Shown: piece after piece, positions 6,261 to 44,881 of the stretch | Position numbering within the stretch: position 1 is the first letter of the stretch | Layout: every line of letters begins with the position of its first letter | DNA from: Candidatus Yanofskybacteria bacterium | GTDB lineage: Bacteria; Patescibacteriota; Minisyncoccia; 2-02-FULL-40-12; GWA2-44-9 | Length of the DNA: 64,000 nucleotides | Assembly: GCA_903830625.1 (NCBI GenBank) | Contig: CAIKUK010000015.1 | Span: 37-64,036 of the forward strand | Reading direction: 5' to 3' | Made by a program: the position numbers and the translations under genes | The notes under the pieces: generated by a model | Seen by the model: the letters and a program-made list of their open reading frames with translations, nothing else | Told to the model about the DNA's origin: nothing | The model's database searches: none

Positions 6261-6742
6261 TCGTGTTTTGTAATTGATATGTTTCGCTCCTGTTCCGCTA
6301 TATGGTCTACATGGATTACCCAATGGTTTCGGGGCAGAATATCGGCCACTCGTTCGGCCCACTCAATCAAAATAATCGTGCCCGGAAGATGAATAATGTC
6401 TTTTCCAAAAAATGAAAGCAAATCAACTGAGCTACTTAATCGATAACAATCGATATGATAGAGCATATGATACTTTGGAACATTGTTAAGGTGATAATGT
6501 TTCATCAAAACAAAGGTCGGACTTTTCAAGTGTTCTTCTACACCCAGCGCTTCGGCAAAAGCCTGAATGAAAGTGGTTTTGCCTGCGCCCAGTTCCCCTT
6601 CCAAAGCCACGATGATAGGCTGACCCTGGCCTTCGCGCGTCAATACCAACGCCTGTTCTCTGGCGAATTTTTGAGTCTCTTCTGGGCTATGAGAAACATA
6701 TAACATCTTGCTCATAGTAGCTTTTTTGGCTTCTTTTTTCAA
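6257..6742 (-). CDS. tsaE: tRNA threonylcarbamoyladenosine biosynthesis protein TsaE
   Basis: P-loop GELGAGKTTFIQAFA and YjeE/TsaE family length. The track start is a TTG. An ATG (MSKMLYV...) 27 nt downstream is an alternative start. Confidence 0.7.
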   Translation of the reverse strand: MKKEAKKATMSKMLYVSHSPEETQKFAREQALVLTREGQGQPIIVALEGELGAGKTTFIQAFAEALGVEEHLKSPTFVLMKHYHLNNVPKYHMLYHIDCYRLSSSVDLLSFFGKDIIHLPGTIILIEWAERVADILPRNHWVIHVDHIAEQERNISITKHE

Positions 6743-6746
6743 ATGA

Positions 6747-6820
6747 AAAACCGCACTCTTTCGACAACCCTATGAAAGGGATGATTGAGTGCGGTCGCGG
6801 CGAGGCCAAAGGCCTCGCCG
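6747..6820 (-). terminator. Tandem GC-rich hairpins followed by a T-run (read on the minus strand). They terminate the high-GC two-gene operon just upstream of the tsaE start.
   Basis: CGGCGAGGCC-aaa-GGCCTCGCCG perfect 10-bp stem, then CCGCACTC...GAGTGCGG followed by TTTTT on the minus strand. Confidence 0.5.
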
Positions 6821-6826
6821 GAATAA

Positions 6827-7177
6827 CTAGCGGTTTCTCGGATCGTCCCACATAGACCCTTCTGTGAGGACGGAAACCGGAGTAGGTGTTGGTGGAGGAA
6901 CTGTTGGCGGTGGTGTCTGTTGGACCTGGATCACCACTGGGACCGGCTGTGCAACCGCCACTGACGCTGGTTGTACATTCCGAGTCTGACCAAAGACCCC
7001 ACCCAGAATCAGCCACGGAACAATGATGAGAAGTAGTCCTAGTGGAATCACCCACCAGGAATACCTTACCCACCAGGAACCTTCGAACGGACCGAGTCTC
7101 CAATCTCGGTCCGTTCCGATTACCATCGAGCGATTTCCTTGAACCACTCGACGCTGAACATCGAAGCGCTGAGCCAT
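6827..7177 (-). CDS. Hypothetical proline-rich membrane protein (high-GC island gene 2)
   Basis: 116 aa with one TM segment (WWVIPLGLLLIIVPWLILGGVF) and a Pro/Thr-rich tail. Its ATG overlaps the upstream gene stop. GC content is far above the window average. Confidence 0.45.
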   Translation of the reverse strand: MAQRFDVQRRVVQGNRSMVIGTDRDWRLGPFEGSWWVRYSWWVIPLGLLLIIVPWLILGGVFGQTRNVQPASVAVAQPVPVVIQVQQTPPPTVPPPTPTPVSVLTEGSMWDDPRNR

Positions 7178-7965
7178 CAGAGTTCTCCTTTGATTGGGTT
7201 AAAGAACACCCAACCGGAATGATATGGCAGCTCACGCTGGCCCAATTCCTGAGTAGGAACTTGTCGATTCCCTTTCCAGGCCATGACTTCTGCCCAGACT
7301 TGCGAATTGCTGGGAAGTTGTTTTGAAACCTCCCCGCCGGCGGGAATCGAGATATACTCCTCGGGATTATCGCCAACGATATGGACCCGAACCTCCAGAT
7401 CCTCGAATCGGTTTCTGAAGATTCTCCACTCCAGTGGGACGGTTTGAACTGTTTGCACCGTACTGGCCGGCTGTGGTTGTGGTGGCGGTTGATAGCCGCC
7501 ATACACGGGTACAGGATACGCGACGGGCTGGCTCATCGCCATGGCAGCGTTCATTTGCTGTCTCATGACAAGTGACTCTACCAGTCCGACACCCATTCCG
7601 ACGCCGACGCCCATCAGTAGGCTTCGGCCGATGCCGGGATAATGGCCGCTGTATAATCCACCTGAACGGCGCCAACTGTAATCCCCGCCCATCCGCCGAA
7701 CGTCATTCTGGAGTCCGCGGATGACTCTGCCGACTTCGTCACGATTCTCGGAACGAGCGGCTGCCGGCTGGCCCGATGTGGACCGGCCGACATTCCGCCA
7801 CGAGCGATCCGTGCGGATGATCGGCAGTGTCGCTCTTCCATCCGCAGGACGCGTTGCGACCGCTGACCGACCCGAAGCGGGGCGGCCGTTGGCACGTTGT
7901 GCAGACGCCGGAACCGCCGACAGCACGAGACCGATAACGACGAACAACATAAACATCTTTTTCAT
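7177..7965 (-). CDS. Hypothetical secreted Gly/Met/Pro-rich protein (high-GC island gene 1)
   Basis: Start placed at MKKMFMLFVVIGLVLSAVPASA (signal-peptide-like), 9 nt after an AGGAG ribosome-binding site. The track ORF extends further upstream without support. Composition is ~55-60% GC. Confidence 0.5.
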   Translation of the reverse strand: MKKMFMLFVVIGLVLSAVPASAQRANGRPASGRSAVATRPADGRATLPIIRTDRSWRNVGRSTSGQPAAARSENRDEVGRVIRGLQNDVRRMGGDYSWRRSGGLYSGHYPGIGRSLLMGVGVGMGVGLVESLVMRQQMNAAMAMSQPVAYPVPVYGGYQPPPQPQPASTVQTVQTVPLEWRIFRNRFEDLEVRVHIVGDNPEEYISIPAGGEVSKQLPSNSQVWAEVMAWKGNRQVPTQELGQRELPYHSGWVFFNPIKGEL

Positions 7966-8070
7966 GAGCTGTCTCCTAAGCCCCGACGCGGTTTGCGTGA
8001 GGCTAAAACGAATTGATATTGAGTTTTCGAGGTACATTCCCCCCGCTCCTAATACCTACATTATACCACA

Positions 8071-8108
8071 AATGTCACCAATTTGTCTAGTGACAGATGT
8101 CACCACTA
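8071..8108. promoter_or_regulatory. Cluster of three TGTCACC/GGTGACA heptamers upstream of the high-GC secreted-protein gene
   Basis: aaTGTCACCaatttgtctaGTGACAgaTGTCACCact. The same heptamer is massively repeated at 11965-12156. Confidence 0.45.
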
Positions 8109-8130
8109 AAATAGCCCGAAATTTGGCCTT

Positions 8131-8502
8131 TTAATCAATGTTTTTATAATGTCTGATTTTTGCCACTCCCCGCTCCTTATCAAAGGCGACAGAAACAATG
8201 TCCATCTGCCAGGGTTGGTTTTCAGAATAGTGTTGATCGGATAAATAGGTCCGAGCGATACGGACCATGCGATGACGCTTGTCAGCATTAACCCGAAGCT
8301 CAGGTTCAAAACCAGGAATGTCTTTCTTGCTGGCTTTAACCTCAACGAAAATGACTATCCCCTCCTTCTCGGCAATAACATCAATCTCGCCCCAGGGTTT
8401 GCGGTAATTATGGCCCAGAATTTTGTATTTTTTGGATTTTAAATATTCGGCCGCATAATGCTCGGCAAAAAATCCTAATTCGCTTGTTCCGCGAACAGTC
8501 AT
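8131..8502 (-). CDS. yraN: YraN family (UPF0102) endonuclease-like protein
   Basis: 123 aa. FAEHYAAEYLKSKKYKILGHNYR...GEIDVIAEKEGIVIFVEVK pattern typical of YraN. Confidence 0.65.
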   Translation of the reverse strand: MTVRGTSELGFFAEHYAAEYLKSKKYKILGHNYRKPWGEIDVIAEKEGIVIFVEVKASKKDIPGFEPELRVNADKRHRMVRIARTYLSDQHYSENQPWQMDIVSVAFDKERGVAKIRHYKNID

Positions 8503-11411: not shown

Positions 11412-11768
11412 TTATTCGGCGTGTTTAATACAAAATGGAGACATAGGCAGTTCCGTAAGACGTTCCATGGAAATATCCTCGCCACACTTCTCACAAACAC
11501 CATAGGTTCCATTTTTGACCTTCTCTTTGGCCTCCAGAATGGCTTCTAGATGATGTTTAAGCTCTTGTTCAATAGCGGTGTTGGTTTCAGTGGTTGTGGC
11601 TTCGCGGGCAATGTCATCTTCTCGGACGTCGCCCTCATAATCAGCCGGCTTAGGCTGAAAACCGCCTGAAGCTGGGTCTTTAACCGCCACTTCCTCTAGG
11701 TCTTTGCGGACAAGAGCTTCTTCTTCCGACAACAAGTGGTCAAATTTTTGTAGGTCTTGCGGGGTCAT
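11412..11768 (-). CDS. DksA/TraR family C4-type zinc-finger protein
   Basis: C-terminal CEKCGEDISMERLTELPMSPFCIKHAE (CxxC-x17-C) and a coiled-coil N-region. The start is taken at MTPQDLQKF. The track ORF extends to 11852 through unlikely N-terminal sequence. Confidence 0.6.
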   Translation of the reverse strand: MTPQDLQKFDHLLSEEEALVRKDLEEVAVKDPASGGFQPKPADYEGDVREDDIAREATTTETNTAIEQELKHHLEAILEAKEKVKNGTYGVCEKCGEDISMERLTELPMSPFCIKHAE

Positions 11769-11964
11769 ATGAGTTTCATGGTATCCGAATACAAAATAAA
11801 AGTAAACTAAAAGGCGCGGATGCCTCGTTAAAGATGATTGCGAGTGTGACACCGCGCCTTAAGACCAAATTTTGCCAACAGTCAGTGACTGTTACAAAAC
11901 TGCCAGCAACTTTCAAGGAACATTACTGAAACAACTTGCCCTTACTCGTTCAGTATAGTCCCTT

Positions 11965-12156
11965 GGTGACACTAGTGTCAATTTTTAAAAGTTGATAAGT
12001 GTCACCATGTCACTAGTGTCACCATGTTTAAACAAATGGCTTTAACAAAAGCTTTTCAATGGTGACACTGGTGACATTTGTTAGTGTCACCATGCTCCCA
12101 AATGTCACCTAGTCACAGGTTATAAACAATGTCACCCGCAGATGTGGGTGACATTG
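11965..12156. repeat. Array of at least 10 GGTGACA/TGTCACC heptamers, including an 18-bp perfect palindrome and an 11-bp inverted repeat
   Basis: GGTGACACTAGTGTCA at 11965, AGTGTCACCATG three times, GGTGACACTGGTGACA, and CAATGTCACCC-gcagatgt-GGGTGACATTG at 12127-12156. The array lies in the 330-bp region upstream of the dksA-like gene. Confidence 0.7.
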
Positions 12157-12180: not shown

Positions 12181-13563
12181 TTATCTGACTGGAACAGTGA
12201 AGGCATCAATAACAGCGAACATGGCTTCCCGAGAACCGGCTATAACCATAAAGGTTTTACCGCCAGATAATACAAAGGCGTAATCTATAGAATGATCAGG
12301 GTAAGAGAAATTCTTGAAGCGAACTGACACACCATTGTAACTGGTAGATATAAATGAGCCGGTATTTTTAGATGGCGTAATAGACATCACTCCGGACAAA
12401 TTGGCACTCATGGTCGGTTCCCAGCCTTGAAGAATACCGACCGAAGAACTGGCCACTTCGCTAATCATCACTAGCCGAGAACCTGGAACAACACCAGTGG
12501 CTAATCGGCCTTTGTTGTCAAAAGACTCTTTTTGGCCATACAGTAAAAACTTATAATACTGGCCGAACGATGCCGGAAGCGACGACGGATATGCCACTAC
12601 GAAACGGTTTAATAAACCGGAAATCGTAAGCACTTGAGCGCTATCGGAAGCCCCGCTAGCAATATTGATTGCCGTTAGAGTCCCTGCGGTTATATTAGGC
12701 TGAGCACTGATGCCATTCTTAAATGCCATGGCCGGGTCTCCCGCCGATGGAAGCATAATAGTTCCGCCCTGGATCGTAAATATTGTGGAAAGTACGTCTG
12801 GATTGGGAGTGGCCGTCGGAACAAACGTAGCTGTAGGAGTAGGAGTTTCTTCAGCCACTTGGCTAGGACTCTGGATAAAGAAATACCAGTAAAGACCGCC
12901 GAAAACCACTATCACGGCCGCGATAATGATAAAGAAAAGATTTCTGGAACTGGCTGGTTTGGTTTCGGCGGCGGGCGGAACATAGAACTGATTCTTCTGG
13001 TCAGATTTCATTTCAGGAGTCTTGGATGCTTGGGGCATTGTGGGCATAACTGGACGGGGGATAGGTGTAGAAACAGGAGGTTTTGGAGCCTGATTCGGTG
13101 TCGATGGCATTGGAGCTGATTTTGTAGCTGAGGGCATGCTTACGGTCGGGCCTAGTTTAGACGGAGCGGGGGCAGAAGTTACGGGCGGAACAACTGGTTT
13201 GACTGGAACCGGAGTATTATCGATTTTCCTAGGAATATTAACCCCCTGAGGCTGTTGGCCGGCTTTAAGCTTGGATAAATCATCACTCATGGTCCGAATA
13301 GAAGATTGGTATTCTTTGGGAACTGAAGGAACAACCGGAGTCGCTGGAGCGGGATTTGGTCTGGGAGGCAGAGGAACCGAATTTGAAGCTATGGGTGGCG
13401 GACCCATGGGTCGAGGCGGAGGCATGGGTGTTGGTTGGGATATTGAACTTTGAGTCGAAGGAGAAGCTGGGCTTGGCGGGGAACCTTGGGGACGACTTAG
13501 TTCTTTAACTAAATCATCGATGTTTGATTGAGAAGCTGATGAGTTTGGACTTTTGTCGTCCAT
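12181..13563 (-). CDS. Hypothetical proline-rich single-pass membrane protein
   Basis: 460 aa. The N-terminal ~200 aa is Pro/Ser/Thr-rich, followed by one TM (FFIIIAAVIVVFGGLYWYFFI) and a ~230 aa C-terminal domain of unknown function. Confidence 0.5.
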   Translation of the reverse strand: MDDKSPNSSASQSNIDDLVKELSRPQGSPPSPASPSTQSSISQPTPMPPPRPMGPPPIASNSVPLPPRPNPAPATPVVPSVPKEYQSSIRTMSDDLSKLKAGQQPQGVNIPRKIDNTPVPVKPVVPPVTSAPAPSKLGPTVSMPSATKSAPMPSTPNQAPKPPVSTPIPRPVMPTMPQASKTPEMKSDQKNQFYVPPAAETKPASSRNLFFIIIAAVIVVFGGLYWYFFIQSPSQVAEETPTPTATFVPTATPNPDVLSTIFTIQGGTIMLPSAGDPAMAFKNGISAQPNITAGTLTAINIASGASDSAQVLTISGLLNRFVVAYPSSLPASFGQYYKFLLYGQKESFDNKGRLATGVVPGSRLVMISEVASSSVGILQGWEPTMSANLSGVMSITPSKNTGSFISTSYNGVSVRFKNFSYPDHSIDYAFVLSGGKTFMVIAGSREAMFAVIDAFTVPVR

Positions 13564-17458: not shown

Positions 17459-18391
17459 ATGTCGGACTTCTACTACCTGGTGGACTTGAAAACGCTCAAA
17501 ATTCAATACTTGGAACACCTGGAAATCGAAAAGAACCGTTCACCTAAAACGCTCGAGAACTACAACCGGTACTTAGATCGGTTTCTGCAATTTGCTAAAG
17601 TAACTAAGCCGCATGATCTCGATGGTGAGAGGATAAGGCAGTACCGGCTGCACTTGAATCGTCTCACTGATAATTACGGACAGCCCCTGATGAAAGTTAC
17701 CCAGAATTATCACATTATTGCCCTCCGAAATTTTTTGAAATACCTGGCCAAGAGGGGAGTGAAAAGCGTCTCGGCAGAAACCATTGAACTGGGCCGGGCC
17801 GAGGACCGCCACGTCACTTTTCTGGAGCACAGCGAGCTGGACCGGTTGCTCAATGCCCCGGAAGGTTCGGATCTAAACGCCCTGCGCGACCGAGCTATAT
17901 TGCGAATGCTGTTTTCAACGGGCATGCGCGTCTCCGAACTTTGTTCCATGGACCGCAGTAAGATTGACTTGAAGCGAGGTGAGCTTTCAGTGCTCGGCAA
18001 AGGCCGAAAAATCAGATTGGTTTTCTTGTCGGAAGACGCTAAGGACCAAATCGGCCAATATATCGCCAAGCGGACCGACGTGGACGAAGCCTTATTTATC
18101 CGCATTCCGAAAAGCAAGAAATTTTCCAAAGATTCCGACTTGCGCCTCACGCCCCGTTCAATCCAGCGCATCGTCCAAAAATACGCTATTAAAGCCGGCA
18201 TCATCGGCAAACATGTTTCGCCTCACACCTTGCGTCATAGTTATGCCACCGATCTACTCCGCAACGGCGCCGACATCCGTTCCGTCCAAGCCATGCTCGG
18301 CCATTCTTCGGTCACGACCACTCAAATCTACACCCACGTCACCGATACCCAGCTCCGCGAAATCCATAAAAAGTTTCATGATAAGAAATAA
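17459..18391 (+). CDS. xerC: Tyrosine recombinase XerC/XerD family
   Basis: 310 aa. N-terminal core-binding domain and C-terminal catalytic RHRY region (HTLRHSYATDLL...LGHSSVTTTQIYTHV). Confidence 0.8.
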   Translation: MSDFYYLVDLKTLKIQYLEHLEIEKNRSPKTLENYNRYLDRFLQFAKVTKPHDLDGERIRQYRLHLNRLTDNYGQPLMKVTQNYHIIALRNFLKYLAKRGVKSVSAETIELGRAEDRHVTFLEHSELDRLLNAPEGSDLNALRDRAILRMLFSTGMRVSELCSMDRSKIDLKRGELSVLGKGRKIRLVFLSEDAKDQIGQYIAKRTDVDEALFIRIPKSKKFSKDSDLRLTPRSIQRIVQKYAIKAGIIGKHVSPHTLRHSYATDLLRNGADIRSVQAMLGHSSVTTTQIYTHVTDTQLREIHKKFHDKK

Positions 18392-19221: not shown

Positions 19222-19254
19222 AAAAATTCCTCTTACGAGGAATTTTTTCTTTTG

Positions 19255-22986: not shown

Positions 22987-23001
22987 GTGCGACTAATAAT
23001 G

Positions 23002-23090
23002 CGGAGAAGGAGGGATTCGAACCCTCGAGGGGGTTTAAGCCCCCTACATCTTTAGCAAAGATGCTCGATAGACCACTCCGACACTTCTCC
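23002..23090 (-). tRNA. tRNA-Ser (anticodon GCT)
   Basis: 89 nt class II: acceptor GGAGAAG/CTTCTCC, anticodon loop TTGCTAA, long variable arm, T-loop TTCGAAT, discriminator G. Confidence 0.75.
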
Positions 23091-24188: not shown

Positions 24189-24279
24189 GGAGGAGTGCGT
24201 GAGTGGATAAAAACGAGCAGTTTACTAAACTGCCAAGCTCGCAAGAGCTTCGTGGGTTCGAATCCCACCTCCTCCGCCA
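24189..24279 (+). tRNA. Class II Ser-like tRNA with apparent ACT anticodon (atypical)
   Basis: 91 nt including an encoded CCA. Acceptor GGAGGAG/CTCCTCC, 3-bp D-stem, anticodon stem GCAGT/ACTGC with loop TTACTAA, long variable arm, T-loop TTCGAAT, G73. It differs from the neighbouring tRNA-Ser(GCT) loop by G34 to A. Confidence 0.5.
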
Positions 24280-35298: not shown

Positions 35299-35796
35299 TG
35301 TCTAGAAATTTAAATTCCCAAAAAGGATTCACTTTGGTCGAGGTTATCATATCGGCTTTTGTTTTTTCTATCATCGCTATTGTCGTAAGCGGATTGTTCG
35401 TCCAAATTTTAGCCCTGGAACGCCGAGCTTTTGCCTCCCAAAAAATTCAAGAGAACGGTCTTTTTATCATGGAACTGATGTCGCGCGAAATTCGCGTCAG
35501 CCAAATCCAAAATCAAGATTCTTTGAATTGCACTGCCACTTCACTGTCCATTATTCACCCCGTTAACGGCCCAGTGGTCTACTCGTTGAACAATGGCGTT
35601 CTCCAACGCACCGCGGAAGGCGTGGTTACCGATCTAAGTTCATCTACGGTCGCATTTTCACGATTGAATTTCTGTGTTATGGGTTCGGGACCAGCTGATG
35701 CCCAGCAGGCCAGAGTAGCTATTCTGGCTTCTATTCAAAATAAAACCGGCCGAGAAATATTAACCACTAGTTTTGAGACCACAGTCTCTTCCCGCG

Positions 35797-35816
<20 letters not shown>
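35298..35816 (+). CDS. Pseudopilin / minor pilin 3 (PilW/GspJ-like)
   Basis: MSRNLNSQKG followed by FTLVEVIISAFVFSIIAIV. Confidence 0.65.
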
Positions 35817-38236
<2,420 letters not shown>

Positions 38237-44760: not shown

Positions 44761-44881
44761 AAGCTAGCAAAAACCTTAAAAATCTGATAAAATAGATAAT
44801 GAAAACGGGCTATGGTGTAGCAGTAGCACGCACCGTTCGGGTCGGTGTAGCTCCGATGCAATTTCGGATAGCCCGACATAT

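What the first reader, a model, noticed from the sequence alone, without database searches (positions are those of the whole stretch)
6743..8110. A ~1.3 kb high-GC island encodes a secreted Gly/Met-rich protein and a Pro-rich membrane protein
GC content jumps from under 45% to roughly 55-60% across 6827-7965. The six-frame track fills with overlapping spurious ORFs, which is typical of compositional outliers. The two real genes (7177-7965 with a signal peptide, 6827-7177 with a TM) are translationally coupled. They are bracketed by a double-hairpin terminator and a GGTGACA-box promoter region. This looks like a horizontally acquired cassette, possibly from a high-GC host organism if this bacterium is an epibiont, that encodes surface or secreted proteins.
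Basis: partly seen in the sequence, partly recalled or inferred. Interest (0 to 1): 0.5.

Follow-up and report, generated by a model that had tools for sequence, protein, structure and literature searches.

The report
Conserved GC-rich envelope gene pair
The GC-rich island is real, but it was not recently imported from a high-GC host: it is a fast-evolving pair of cell-envelope genes that sits at the same place, and is GC-rich, in every related Yanofskybacteria-like (CPR) genome examined.

Summary
Positions 6827-7965 are 57.1% GC against a window mean of 45.0%, the highest stretch in the window. They hold two real, translationally coupled minus-strand genes with their own promoter and a double-hairpin terminator. 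Gene A is a Sec-secreted protein: an Arg-rich disordered region, a Gly/Met zipper, a Pro linker and a confidently predicted beta-sandwich. Gene B is a single-pass membrane protein with a Pro-rich stalk ending in WDDPRNR.

Recent transfer from a high-GC host is not supported. In about 20 related CPR loci the slot between yraN and tsaE holds an equally GC-rich gene for a secreted protein (22 of 23 loci), usually followed by a membrane-protein gene. The island GC is 0.58-0.66 whether the flanks are 0.40 or 0.52. Synonymous sites are saturated, and an exhaustive search found only 58 relatives.

The locus is a mosaic. A's C-terminal domain and B's tail switch type together (partial Mantel r=0.85), independently of the other parts and of phylogeny. 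I infer that A docks on B's tail.

GC enrichment affects all codon positions (Arg replaces Lys, Val replaces Ile, GC3 is +0.2). That points to a force specific to this locus, possibly recombination-linked biased gene conversion. The function has not been tested.

The parts
8060..8089 (-). Sigma-70-type promoter: -35 TAGACA (8089-8084), 18-nt spacer, extended -10 TGgTATAAT (8068-8060)
   Evidence: 11 of 12 consensus matches, TG present; sequence
8068..8105 (-). Operator-like GGTGACA boxes. Two direct copies of TGGTGACATYTGT lie at 8093-8105 and 8068-8080. The upstream copy forms the perfect palindrome GTGACA-TC-TGTCAC (8103-8090), which abuts the -35; the downstream copy fills the spacer.
   Evidence: family D4; 9 matches against 1.8 expected; 15 GGTGACA against 4.0 expected. 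The same motif forms arrays at 11965-12153 and upstream of the A-like gene in L013.
7966..8050 (-). About 85-nt 5' leader with the Shine-Dalgarno AGGAG at 7977-7973. The transcription start is inferred from the -10 element.
   Evidence: Sequence; no Rfam family matches
7177..7965 (-). Gene A: secreted 262-aa protein of a small family restricted to this CPR clade
   Evidence: 58 relatives among 1.84e9 representatives; dN/dS 0.07-0.28
7900..7965 (-). A residues 1-22: Sec signal peptide with the AXA site ...VPASA|Q. A22 and Q23 are invariant in 24 of 24 relatives.
7636..7899 (-). A residues 23-110: Arg/Gly/Ala/Ser-rich region (19% Arg) predicted to be disordered. It is the GC peak (0.65) and the part least like any relative.
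   Evidence: pLDDT below 50; N-terminal similarity 0.06-0.09
7531..7635 (-). A residues 111-145: Gly/Met zipper-like segment GIGRSLLMGVGVGMGVGLVESLVMRQQMNAAMAMS. It aligns with the glycine-zipper region of relatives.
   Evidence: (9 of 24 relatives hit Gly-zipper_YMGG, 6 Gly-zipper_Omp, 3 Rick_17kDa_Anti; the window protein hits none)
7438..7530 (-). A residues 146-176: Pro/Gln-rich linker
7192..7437 (-). A residues 177-258: conserved eight-strand beta-sandwich domain (motifs RNRF, PAGG, WAE, LP.HSGWVFFNP)
6827..7177 (-). Gene B: 116-aa single-pass membrane protein. Its start overlaps A's stop (TGATG), and its own AGGAG lies inside A's last codons.
6989..7075 (-). B residues 35-63: transmembrane helix. 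The Arg-rich N-terminus (residues 1-34) is inferred to be cytoplasmic by the positive-inside rule.
   Evidence: Hydropathy heuristic and the sequence; the topology is inferred
6854..6988 (-). B residues 64-108: Pro/Val/Gln/Thr-rich extracytoplasmic stalk (24% Pro)
6830..6850 (-). B residues 110-116: C-terminal tail WDDPRNR. It is invariant in all five loci whose A carries this beta-sandwich type.
6746..6820 (-). Double-hairpin intrinsic terminator: hairpin 1 at 6798-6820, hairpin 2 at 6749-6796, then a U5 run
   Evidence: inverted repeat I2; -45 kcal/mol, z -5.9

Best explanation
The island is an ancestral two-gene operon restricted to one lineage. It has its own promoter, operator-like boxes and terminator, and it encodes cell-envelope proteins of a Yanofskybacteria-like CPR bacterium.

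Shown:
- The same slot between yraN (UPF0102) and tsaE holds a GC-rich gene for a secreted protein, usually followed by a membrane-protein gene, in essentially all related genomes examined.
- The genes are under purifying selection but are strongly mosaic.
- A's C-terminal beta-sandwich and B's C-terminal tail change type together, independently of A's N-terminal half, of B's N-terminus and transmembrane part, and of host phylogeny.

Inferred mechanism:
- A is exported by Sec and its signal peptide is cleaved.
- A's beta-sandwich docks on the exposed C-terminal tail (WDDPRNR) that B holds out from the membrane on a Pro-rich stalk. A is therefore displayed on, or retained at, the cell surface.
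- A's glycine-zipper segment and basic disordered region would then be free to engage a membrane or cell-wall polymers.
- The pair diversifies by exchange of modules among related lineages.

Inferred cause of the GC-richness:
- It is a property of the locus, not a trace of foreign origin. It affects all codon positions and persists although synonymous sites are saturated.
- The most likely cause is a GC-ward force specific to this locus. GC-biased gene conversion linked to frequent recombination is the leading candidate, acting on proteins that tolerate Gly/Ala/Pro/Arg-rich sequence.
For: Synteny.
- The order LysM peptidase, yraN, (extra gene X), A, B, tsaE, polA, fpg is seen in L001, L003, L004, L005 and L088, and partly in L086, L090, L093 and L094.
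- Of 23 loci that contain both yraN and tsaE, 22 carry a GC-rich gene for a secreted protein in the gap, and about 18 also carry a downstream membrane-protein gene.
- L006, the closest relative by TsaE identity (76%), lacks yraN on its contig but carries both genes upstream of tsaE.

Composition, 17 loci.
- Flank GC is 0.453 +/- 0.042, A is 0.599 +/- 0.024 and B is 0.611.
- GC3 exceeds the flank value in 16 of 17 loci for each gene (mean +0.20 and +0.16; Wilcoxon p = 3.5e-4 and 6e-4).
- R/(R+K) is 0.77 in A and 0.72 in B against 0.32 in PolA. V/(V+I) is 0.70 and 0.67 against 0.45. The shift also holds within the folded domain.
- dS is at least 1.4, that is saturated, between all pairs.

Real coding genes. 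dN/dS is 0.07-0.5, and no alternative frame stays open in all loci.

Co-variation.
- Mantel correlation between A C-domain similarity and B tail similarity is r = 0.86.
- Controlling for yraN similarity gives r = 0.85, p = 2e-4. Using only the last 12 aa of B gives r = 0.89.
- A's N-terminal half against its C-domain gives r = 0.03, not significant.
- L001 and L019 are close relatives (PolA 86% identical). They keep B's N-terminus (similarity 0.95) but differ in both A's C-domain (0.05) and B's tail (0.19).
- L094 repeats the L019 pairing of domain type and tail type.

Structure and signals.
- The beta-sandwich is predicted at pLDDT 92-97.
- Glycine-zipper models hit 9 of 24 relatives.
- Promoter and terminator.
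Against: - No expression, localisation or binding data exist.
- Co-variation could instead reflect toxin-immunity specificity, or joint adaptation of both parts to a third partner.
- L090 and L093 carry an A-like gene with no B gene. L021 and L027 showed no B with a transmembrane segment. B is therefore not always needed.
- In several lineages B has 3-5 transmembrane helices (L010, L013, L015, L020, L028), which looks more like an immunity protein than a stalk.
- The window protein itself misses every glycine-zipper model.
- Biased gene conversion is not demonstrated. Nothing here excludes selection on GC itself, or repeated import from an unsampled CPR gene pool of higher GC.
- In the window alone, B's GC3 (0.50) is ordinary, and A's (0.59) is only 1.75 sd above the mean.
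Confidence: 0.6

Rival explanations
1. Toxin-immunity or effector-protector pair. A would be a Sec-exported, glycine-zipper, membrane-active effector aimed at competitors or at the host cell of this presumed epibiont. B, encoded immediately downstream, would be the cognate membrane-bound immunity protein that sequesters A on the producer. The variable C-domain and the co-varying tail would set the specificity.
For: - The gene order is effector followed by a small membrane protein, and the two are translationally coupled.
- Glycine-zipper models hit 9 of 24 relatives.
- A variable C-terminal domain that co-varies strongly with the downstream product is the hallmark of polymorphic toxin systems.
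- B has 3-5 transmembrane helices in several lineages.
- Published glycine-zipper toxins (CdzC/D, Tse4, TelE, TspA, LXG-T2) have membrane immunity proteins encoded directly downstream (PMC12955049).
Against: - B co-varies with the beta-sandwich, not with the part of A that holds the zipper. A's N-terminal half against B's N-terminus gives r = 0.28, and against B's tail r = 0.22. Immunity to a pore-former would be expected to track the pore-forming part.
- The locus is single-copy, sits at a fixed housekeeping position and is present in nearly every member of the clade. No orphan toxin-tip and immunity arrays were seen.
- A's C-domain has no known toxin domain or catalytic motif, and nothing matches PADLOC, PHROGs or Pfam.
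- L090 and L093 carry A without B.
Confidence: 0.2
2. One reading: a cassette acquired recently by horizontal transfer from a high-GC organism, such as an actinobacterial host, and not yet adjusted to the recipient's composition.
For: - The island has the highest GC in the window.
- Its amino-acid usage (Arg over Lys, Val over Ile) resembles that of proteins from high-GC genomes.
- A's C-domain is more similar between the window and L001 (dN 0.17) than PolA is (dN 0.37). That fits some lateral movement.
Against: - The slot is occupied and equally GC-rich in 22 of 23 related loci.
- Synonymous sites are saturated, yet GC3 stays high in every lineage.
- No integrase, tRNA or direct repeats flank the island.
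- Only 58 relatives exist among 1.84e9 representatives. All 11 distinct relative loci recovered with flanking genes show CPR neighbours: yraN and/or tsaE in 10, and an adjacent B homologue in L091.
- Scans of the genome and metagenome collections found no relative elsewhere.
Confidence: 0.04
3. The GC-richness merely reflects protein composition: low-complexity Gly/Ala/Pro/Arg-rich envelope proteins. No force acts at the nucleotide level.
For: - In the window, the amino-acid sequence combined with the window's own codon usage predicts GC 0.546 for A (observed 0.578) and 0.559 for B (observed 0.553).
- Across 17 loci, amino-acid composition accounts for a median 56% (A) and 68% (B) of the GC excess.
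Against: - GC3 is raised in 16 of 17 loci for each gene.
- Exchanges that are nearly neutral for function (Lys to Arg, Ile to Val) are shifted even within the folded beta-sandwich.
- A's GC stays within 0.58-0.66 across backgrounds of 0.40-0.52.
Confidence: 0.12
4. The high GC is held in place by a second element encoded in the same DNA, such as an overlapping or antisense gene, a structured RNA, or the target and template repeats of a diversity-generating retroelement.
For: Long ORFs are open in other frames, for example 6687..7502(-) of 271 aa and 7721..8134(+) of 137 aa.
Against: - No alternative frame is free of stops in all five homologous loci.
- No Rfam family matches the region.
- The window holds no repeat of the island that could serve as a template. 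No reverse transcriptase was evident: a motif scan of the long ORFs gave one [YF]xDD match, in the PilC (T2SS F) homologue.
Confidence: 0.02

Closest known systems
Glycine-zipper envelope lipoproteins (Pfam Gly-zipper_YMGG, Gly-zipper_Omp, Rick_17kDa_Anti; NCBIfam YiaD family; SlyB/Pcp type)
   Same: Both are small exported proteins with a central GxxxG-repeat segment. Nine of 24 relatives of A hit these models. The profile of the A family weakly matches the zipper region of an OmpA-family protein (6x65_N, E 1e-3) and of TraT.
   Different: - The window protein itself hits none of these models. Its segment is a degenerate Gly/Met version.
- It has no lipobox Cys in most members, including the window protein; the signal peptide has a type I AXA cleavage site.
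- It has no OmpA-like domain.
- It carries a C-terminal beta-sandwich found in none of those families.
- It is paired with a co-varying membrane protein.
- Its host is a CPR bacterium, for which an outer membrane is not expected (my own knowledge).
pVHL beta domain (peptide-binding beta-sandwich of the von Hippel-Lindau protein)
   Different: - Sequence homology is not supported: hhalign probability is 2.7%, the profile search of PDB sequences returned no pVHL chain at E up to 10, and the Pfam scan of the window protein at E up to 1 returned no VHL model.
- Foldseek E-values are 0.04-0.2, which is not significant.
- A has no alpha domain or elongin-binding box.
- A is extracytoplasmic and bacterial.
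Polymorphic toxin-immunity pairs and glycine-zipper toxins with downstream membrane immunity (CdzC/D, Tse4, TelE, TspA, LXG-T2; PMC12955049)
   Same: Both have a modular protein with a variable C-terminal domain and a small membrane protein encoded directly downstream that co-varies with it. Both show glycine zippers, mosaic evolution and exchange of modules.
   Different: - Export here is by Sec, with no T1SS, T6SS, T7SS or CDI delivery domain.
- The variable module is a small beta-sandwich, not a recognisable toxin.
- The zipper is the more conserved part, and B does not track it.
- The locus is single-copy and sits in the core genome.
- No toxicity has been tested.
Variable surface-protein loci that diversify by mosaic recombination (general class; my own knowledge)
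   Same: Both occupy a fixed chromosomal locus, have highly divergent alleles among close relatives, and reassort domains independently of the species tree.
   Different: - Here two separate polypeptides carry co-varying modules.
- The whole locus keeps a GC content 12-20 points above the genome across a whole clade.
- No silent cassettes or repeats were found.

Membership tests
Recently acquired genomic island from a high-GC donor | Base composition unlike the host genome | tested here: met
   0.571 against 0.450; the highest value in the window
Recently acquired genomic island from a high-GC donor | Absent from, or patchy in, close relatives at that locus | tested here: not met
   A GC-rich gene for a secreted protein lies in the same yraN-tsaE slot in 22 of 23 related loci. 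L006, the closest relative by TsaE, lacks yraN on its contig but carries both genes upstream of tsaE.
Recently acquired genomic island from a high-GC donor | Mobility signatures: integrase, tRNA target, flanking direct repeats | tested here: not met
   None lies next to the island. The nearest tRNA is at 19254, and the nearest gene with phage-integrase Pfam domains is 17459..18391.
Recently acquired genomic island from a high-GC donor | Homologues in a plausible donor lineage | tested here: not met
   Only 58 relatives among 1.84e9 representatives. All 11 distinct relative loci recovered with flanking genes show CPR neighbours. The taxonomy of the remaining hits was not checked.
Recently acquired genomic island from a high-GC donor | Composition still drifting toward that of the host, implying recent arrival | tested here: not met
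   dS is at least 1.4 between all pairs, yet GC3 is 0.54-0.71 in each. A's GC is 0.58-0.66 whatever the flank GC.
Glycine-zipper lipoprotein families (Pfam PF13441, PF13488, PF05433) | Significant match to the family model | tested here: not met
   The window protein has no Pfam hit at E up to 1. Nine, six and three of its 24 relatives do hit these models.
Glycine-zipper lipoprotein families (Pfam PF13441, PF13488, PF05433) | Lipoprotein signal peptide with a lipobox Cys | tested here: not met
   The cleavage region is ...VPASA|QR with no Cys. A22 and Q23 are invariant in 24 of 24 relatives.
pVHL beta domain | Fold similarity | tested here: met
pVHL beta domain | Similarity at sequence or profile level | tested here: not met
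   hhalign probability 2.7%; no pVHL chain returned by the PDB profile search at E up to 10; the Pfam scan of the window protein at E up to 1 returned no VHL model
pVHL beta domain | Binding of a peptide along the sandwich | not testable with these tools
   Suggested only by the co-variation of A's C-domain with B's tail
Polymorphic toxin-immunity system | Variable C-terminal module with a co-varying product of the downstream gene | tested here: met
   Partial Mantel r = 0.85, p = 2e-4
Polymorphic toxin-immunity system | Recognisable toxin domain or dedicated delivery domain | tested here: not met
   No significant hit (E below 1e-3) in Pfam, NCBIfam, PADLOC or PHROGs. The only export signal is a Sec signal peptide.
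Polymorphic toxin-immunity system | Toxicity that the cognate partner neutralises | not testable with these tools
   Needs expression experiments
Target of a diversity-generating retroelement | Reverse transcriptase plus a template/variable repeat pair | tested here: not met
   The island has no repeat elsewhere in the window. No reverse transcriptase was evident from a [YF]xDD motif scan of the long ORFs; the one match lies in PilC.

The most novel reading that the evidence does not exclude
Yanofskybacteria-like CPR bacteria keep, at one fixed core-genome locus, a hypervariable two-protein surface device. A secreted protein with a pVHL-like beta-sandwich plugs onto the C-terminal tail of a Pro-rich membrane stalk. 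Matched domain and tail modules are swapped among lineages. The device would mediate recognition of, or membrane attack on, the host or partner cell. Its persistent GC-richness, 12-20 points above the genome, would be the footprint of exceptionally frequent recombination through GC-biased gene conversion in otherwise AT-leaning, reduced genomes.
Probability: 0.2. Interest if true: 0.7.

Novelty: new variant of a known kind. Interest (0 to 1): 0.45.

Why it matters
- Method. A compositional outlier is a classic cue for horizontal transfer. Here the cue misleads, and the case shows how to recognise that: check synteny in relatives, check whether synonymous sites are saturated, and separate GC3 and Lys/Arg or Ile/Val usage from low-complexity composition.
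- Biology of CPR bacteria. Most envelope proteins of CPR/Patescibacteria have no known function, and how these presumed epibionts contact partner cells is an open question. A locus conserved across a clade yet hypervariable, with two co-varying exposed modules, is a concrete and testable candidate for a surface recognition or attack device.
- Genome evolution. An island whose GC stays at about 0.60 in genomes of 0.40-0.52, despite saturated divergence, is a natural test case for biased gene conversion in bacteria.

Tried and rejected
- First structure prediction, with 5 sequences: pLDDT 41 and unusable. It succeeded only with the 24-sequence alignment.
- Scans of the genome and metagenome collections with peptide patterns from the A alignment: no relative found.
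- Scan of the metagenome collection for the back-translated WDDPRNR-stop tail: 36 matches, all by chance, none preceded by an A-type domain.
- Search for homologues of B: only B itself was found. B relatives were recovered through synteny instead.
- The extra secreted gene X of relatives compared with the A profile: only the signal peptides align, so the suspected paralogy is unproven.
- The afdb50 fold library was not available. The viral fold library gave nothing significant.
- pVHL homology at sequence level: rejected, hhalign probability 2.7%.
- Diversity-generating retroelement, overlapping gene and structured RNA: rejected.
- Phage or defence-system origin: no significant hits.
- The longer 286-aa reading of A starting at 8037: rejected. 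The extension is not conserved, and relatives start at MRK/MKK directly before the signal peptide.
- The 271-aa ORF 6687..7502(-): rejected as spurious.
- Literature searches for a description of this locus or family in CPR bacteria: nothing found.
Full report

Yes. Positions 6827-7965 have GC 0.571 against 0.450 for the 64-kb window. Windows of the same length average 0.450 with sd 0.030, and the maximum (0.579) lies here. The 300-nt peak is 0.65 at 7600-7899.

The island carries many overlapping ORFs. Only two are genes:
- Gene A, 7177..7965(-), 262 aa.
- Gene B, 6827..7177(-), 116 aa.

Both are under purifying selection in the annotated frame. dN/dS is 0.07-0.28 for A's C-terminal domain and 0.15-0.5 for B. 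No alternative frame is free of stops in all five homologous loci.

A's stop and B's start overlap by one base (TGATG), and an AGGAG for B lies inside A's last codons. A has its own AGGAG at 7977-7973.

The unit has its own transcription signals:
- A strong sigma-70-type promoter, TAGACA-18-TGgTATAAT at 8089..8060(-), matching 11 of 12 positions.
- Two stable hairpins after B followed by U5, at -45 kcal/mol and z = -5.9.

The promoter is overlapped by two TGGTGACATYTGT boxes, one of which forms the palindrome GTGACA-TC-TGTCAC. GGTGACA occurs 15 times in the window against 4.0 expected.

**2. What organism and what neighbourhood?**

The flanking genes are housekeeping genes: fpg, polA, tsaE on one side and yraN (UPF0102) and a LysM/M23 peptidase on the other.

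PolA is 70-78% identical to MAGs labelled Candidatus Yanofskybacteria, Paceibacterota or Patescibacteria. The window therefore comes from a Yanofskybacteria-like CPR bacterium.

**3. What are the proteins?**

The window's A and B hit nothing significant in Pfam, NCBIfam, PHROGs or PADLOC.

Gene A, from N- to C-terminus:
- A Sec signal peptide with an AXA site (...VPASA|Q). A22 and Q23 are invariant in 24 of 24 relatives.
- A disordered region with 19% Arg, which is the GC peak.
- A Gly/Met zipper-like segment, residues 111-145.
- A Pro/Gln linker.
- A conserved C-terminal domain.

The central segment of relatives matches glycine-zipper models in 9 of 24 cases, and the YiaD family in NCBIfam. 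The window protein's version is degenerate and matches none.

Gene B has an Arg-rich N-terminus, one transmembrane helix, a 24%-Pro stalk and the C-terminal tail WDDPRNR.

An exhaustive HMMER search of 1.84 billion representatives found only 58 relatives of A. The family is small and restricted to one lineage.

**4. Is it a recent import?**

No.

*Synteny.* Every relative of A that could be placed on a contig lies in the same synteny: LysM peptidase, yraN, sometimes an extra secreted gene X, A, B, tsaE, polA, fpg.

I then surveyed all PolA-anchored loci that contain both yraN and tsaE. In 22 of 23 the gap holds a GC-rich gene for a secreted protein, and in about 18 a membrane-protein gene follows it. 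The proteins in the slot are often unrecognisably different from the window's. L006, the closest relative by TsaE, carries both genes upstream of tsaE.

*Composition.* Across 17 loci with usable flanks:
- Flank GC is 0.453 +/- 0.042.
- A is 0.599 +/- 0.024 and B is 0.611.
- GC3 exceeds the flank value in 16 of 17 loci for each gene (mean +0.20 and +0.16; p = 3.5e-4 and 6e-4).

*Age.* Synonymous sites are saturated between all pairs (dS at least 1.4), yet each lineage keeps the high GC3.

*Mobility.* No mobility gene, tRNA or direct repeat brackets the island.

**5. Why is it GC-rich?**

In the window, the amino-acid sequences combined with the window's own codon usage already predict GC 0.546 for A and 0.559 for B. 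The observed values are 0.578 and 0.553. Across loci, amino-acid composition accounts for a median 56% (A) and 68% (B) of the excess.

The amino-acid shift itself looks driven by nucleotide content:
- R/(R+K) is 0.77 in A and 0.72 in B against 0.32 in PolA.
- V/(V+I) is 0.70 and 0.67 against 0.45.
- The shift is also present inside the folded beta-sandwich.

The window's B has no Lys at all.

Together with the raised GC3, this points to a GC-ward force specific to the locus that acts on all codon positions. I favour recombination-linked GC-biased gene conversion, which has been proposed to be widespread in bacteria (PMC4450053), because the locus shows abundant mosaicism (section 6). This is an inference. 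It was not tested here.

**6. Mosaic structure and co-variation**

I compared four parts of 20-21 A-B pairs: A's N-terminal half, A's C-terminal domain, B's N-terminus with its transmembrane helix, and B's last 30 aa.

Similarity of A's C-domain tracks similarity of B's tail:
- Mantel r = 0.86.
- Controlling for yraN similarity, r = 0.85, p = 2e-4.
- With only the last 12 aa of B, r = 0.89.
- Controlling for B's N-terminus, r = 0.84.

A's two halves are uncorrelated (r = 0.03).

Concrete cases:
- All five loci with the WKIFRNRFE...SGWVFFNP domain have the WDDPRNR tail.
- L018, L088 and L075 pair a ...GLxLVWR domain with a Cys-bracketed tail.
- L019 and L094 pair a third domain type with ...ELSPEELDRxHTEYL.
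- L086 and L091 pair a fourth type with ...KSGLPPxxW.

L001 and L019 are close relatives (PolA 86% and yraN 96% identical). They keep B's N-terminus (similarity 0.95), yet differ in both the segment before it (A's C-domain, 0.05) and the segment after it (B's tail, 0.19). Simple physical linkage cannot explain that pattern.

The window's closest housekeeping relatives (L006-L010) carry other module types. The window's A C-domain is instead 70-71% identical to that of L001 and L004, whose PolA is only about 58% identical. Its dN of 0.17 compares with 0.35-0.47 for the flanking genes. This fits exchange of modules among lineages, or long-lived allelic types.

**7. Mechanism**

Best-supported model (inferred): A is exported, and its beta-sandwich docks on the tail that B presents on a Pro-rich stalk outside the membrane. 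Cognate modules are co-selected.

Main rival: A is a glycine-zipper, membrane-active effector and B is its immunity protein. Published glycine-zipper toxins have this layout (PMC12955049), and B has 3-5 transmembrane helices in some lineages.

Against the rival:
- B tracks the sandwich, not the half of A that holds the zipper.
- The locus is core and single-copy.
- No toxin domain is recognisable.
- Some genomes carry A without B.

**8. Verdict**

The reading as horizontal transfer from a high-GC host is not supported. What lies here is an uncharacterised envelope gene pair specific to one CPR clade, at a conserved, mosaic and persistently GC-rich locus.

- Novelty: a new variant of known kinds, namely glycine-zipper envelope proteins and variable surface or effector loci.
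- Interest: moderate.
- Function: untested.

Noticed in passing
window 11965-12153: An array of nine GGTGACA/TGTCACC boxes, in both orientations and including palindromes such as TGACAC-TA-GTGTCA, lies within 190 bp. It sits in the spacer upstream of a dksA/traR-like zinc-finger gene (11412..11852, -) and comM. Similar arrays lie upstream of the dksA-like gene in L007 (32-73), upstream of comM in L013 (15-64), directly upstream of the A-like gene in L013 (3470-3693, nine copies) and in the convergent comM/LysM spacer of L028 (1580-1730, 12 copies). It may be an operator array, a centromere-like element or a repeat element. The binding protein is unknown.
   Followed up: partly
window 24189-24279 (+); also 23001-23090 (-) and 44806-44877 (+): ARAGORN calls a tRNA-Ser with the unusual anticodon ACT. 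This call and two other ARAGORN tRNAs, Ser-GCT and Pro-CGG, were not recovered by the Rfam tRNA model at its gathering threshold.
   Followed up: no
window 35773-36234 (+): This is the second most GC-rich gene of the window (GC 0.545, GC3 0.60). It encodes a 153-aa hypothetical protein with one hydrophobic helix. It lies at the end of a type IV pilus cluster: PilB 28808, PilT-like 30510, PilC 31636, and prepilin-type genes 34813 and 35289.
   Followed up: partly
window 12181-13563 (-): A 460-aa single-pass protein has a Pro/Ser-rich N-terminal half and no Pfam match. It lies immediately upstream of the GGTGACA array, in a region of positive GC skew (+0.13).
   Followed up: no
L001:3419-3862, L003:2006-2404, L004:2157-2555, L018:2919-3317, L019:2969-3373, L088:4474-4872, L094:566-961: An extra secreted 131-147-aa protein, X, of ordinary GC (0.41-0.47) lies between yraN and A in one clade and is absent from the window. 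Its C-terminus (...RGWLFFRK) recalls A's ...SGWVFFNP. A profile comparison aligned only the signal peptides.
   Followed up: partly
L090:5001-5762 and L093:3609-4379: These A-like genes share the N-terminal half with L086 and L091 but carry a third C-domain type (...IRNTTGF.ARLYQND...RGWDIVPPKF). They have no B gene. A hairpin and T-run follow directly.
   Followed up: partly
window 7177-7191: The conserved C-terminal residues KGEL of A (window, L001, L004) are encoded by AAAGGAGAACTC, which doubles as the Shine-Dalgarno sequence for B. Conservation of the protein's end may partly reflect this signal.
   Followed up: no
L004:1650-1895 and L088:3944-4144: A small gene (81 and 66 aa) lies between yraN and X in some relatives and is absent from the window. 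The L004 product contains ...LLVSKPTVKRWAQGK..., which to my eye looks like a helix-turn-helix. The L088 product was not translated, and no domain search was run on either.
   Followed up: no
L010:4090-5199, L012:3737-4966, L020:2316-3914, L029:3278-4438: In several relatives the slot also holds a 369-532-aa membrane protein with a shared ...PQDERW..TIFGKY... motif and intermediate GC (0.47-0.55). No domain search was run.
   Followed up: no
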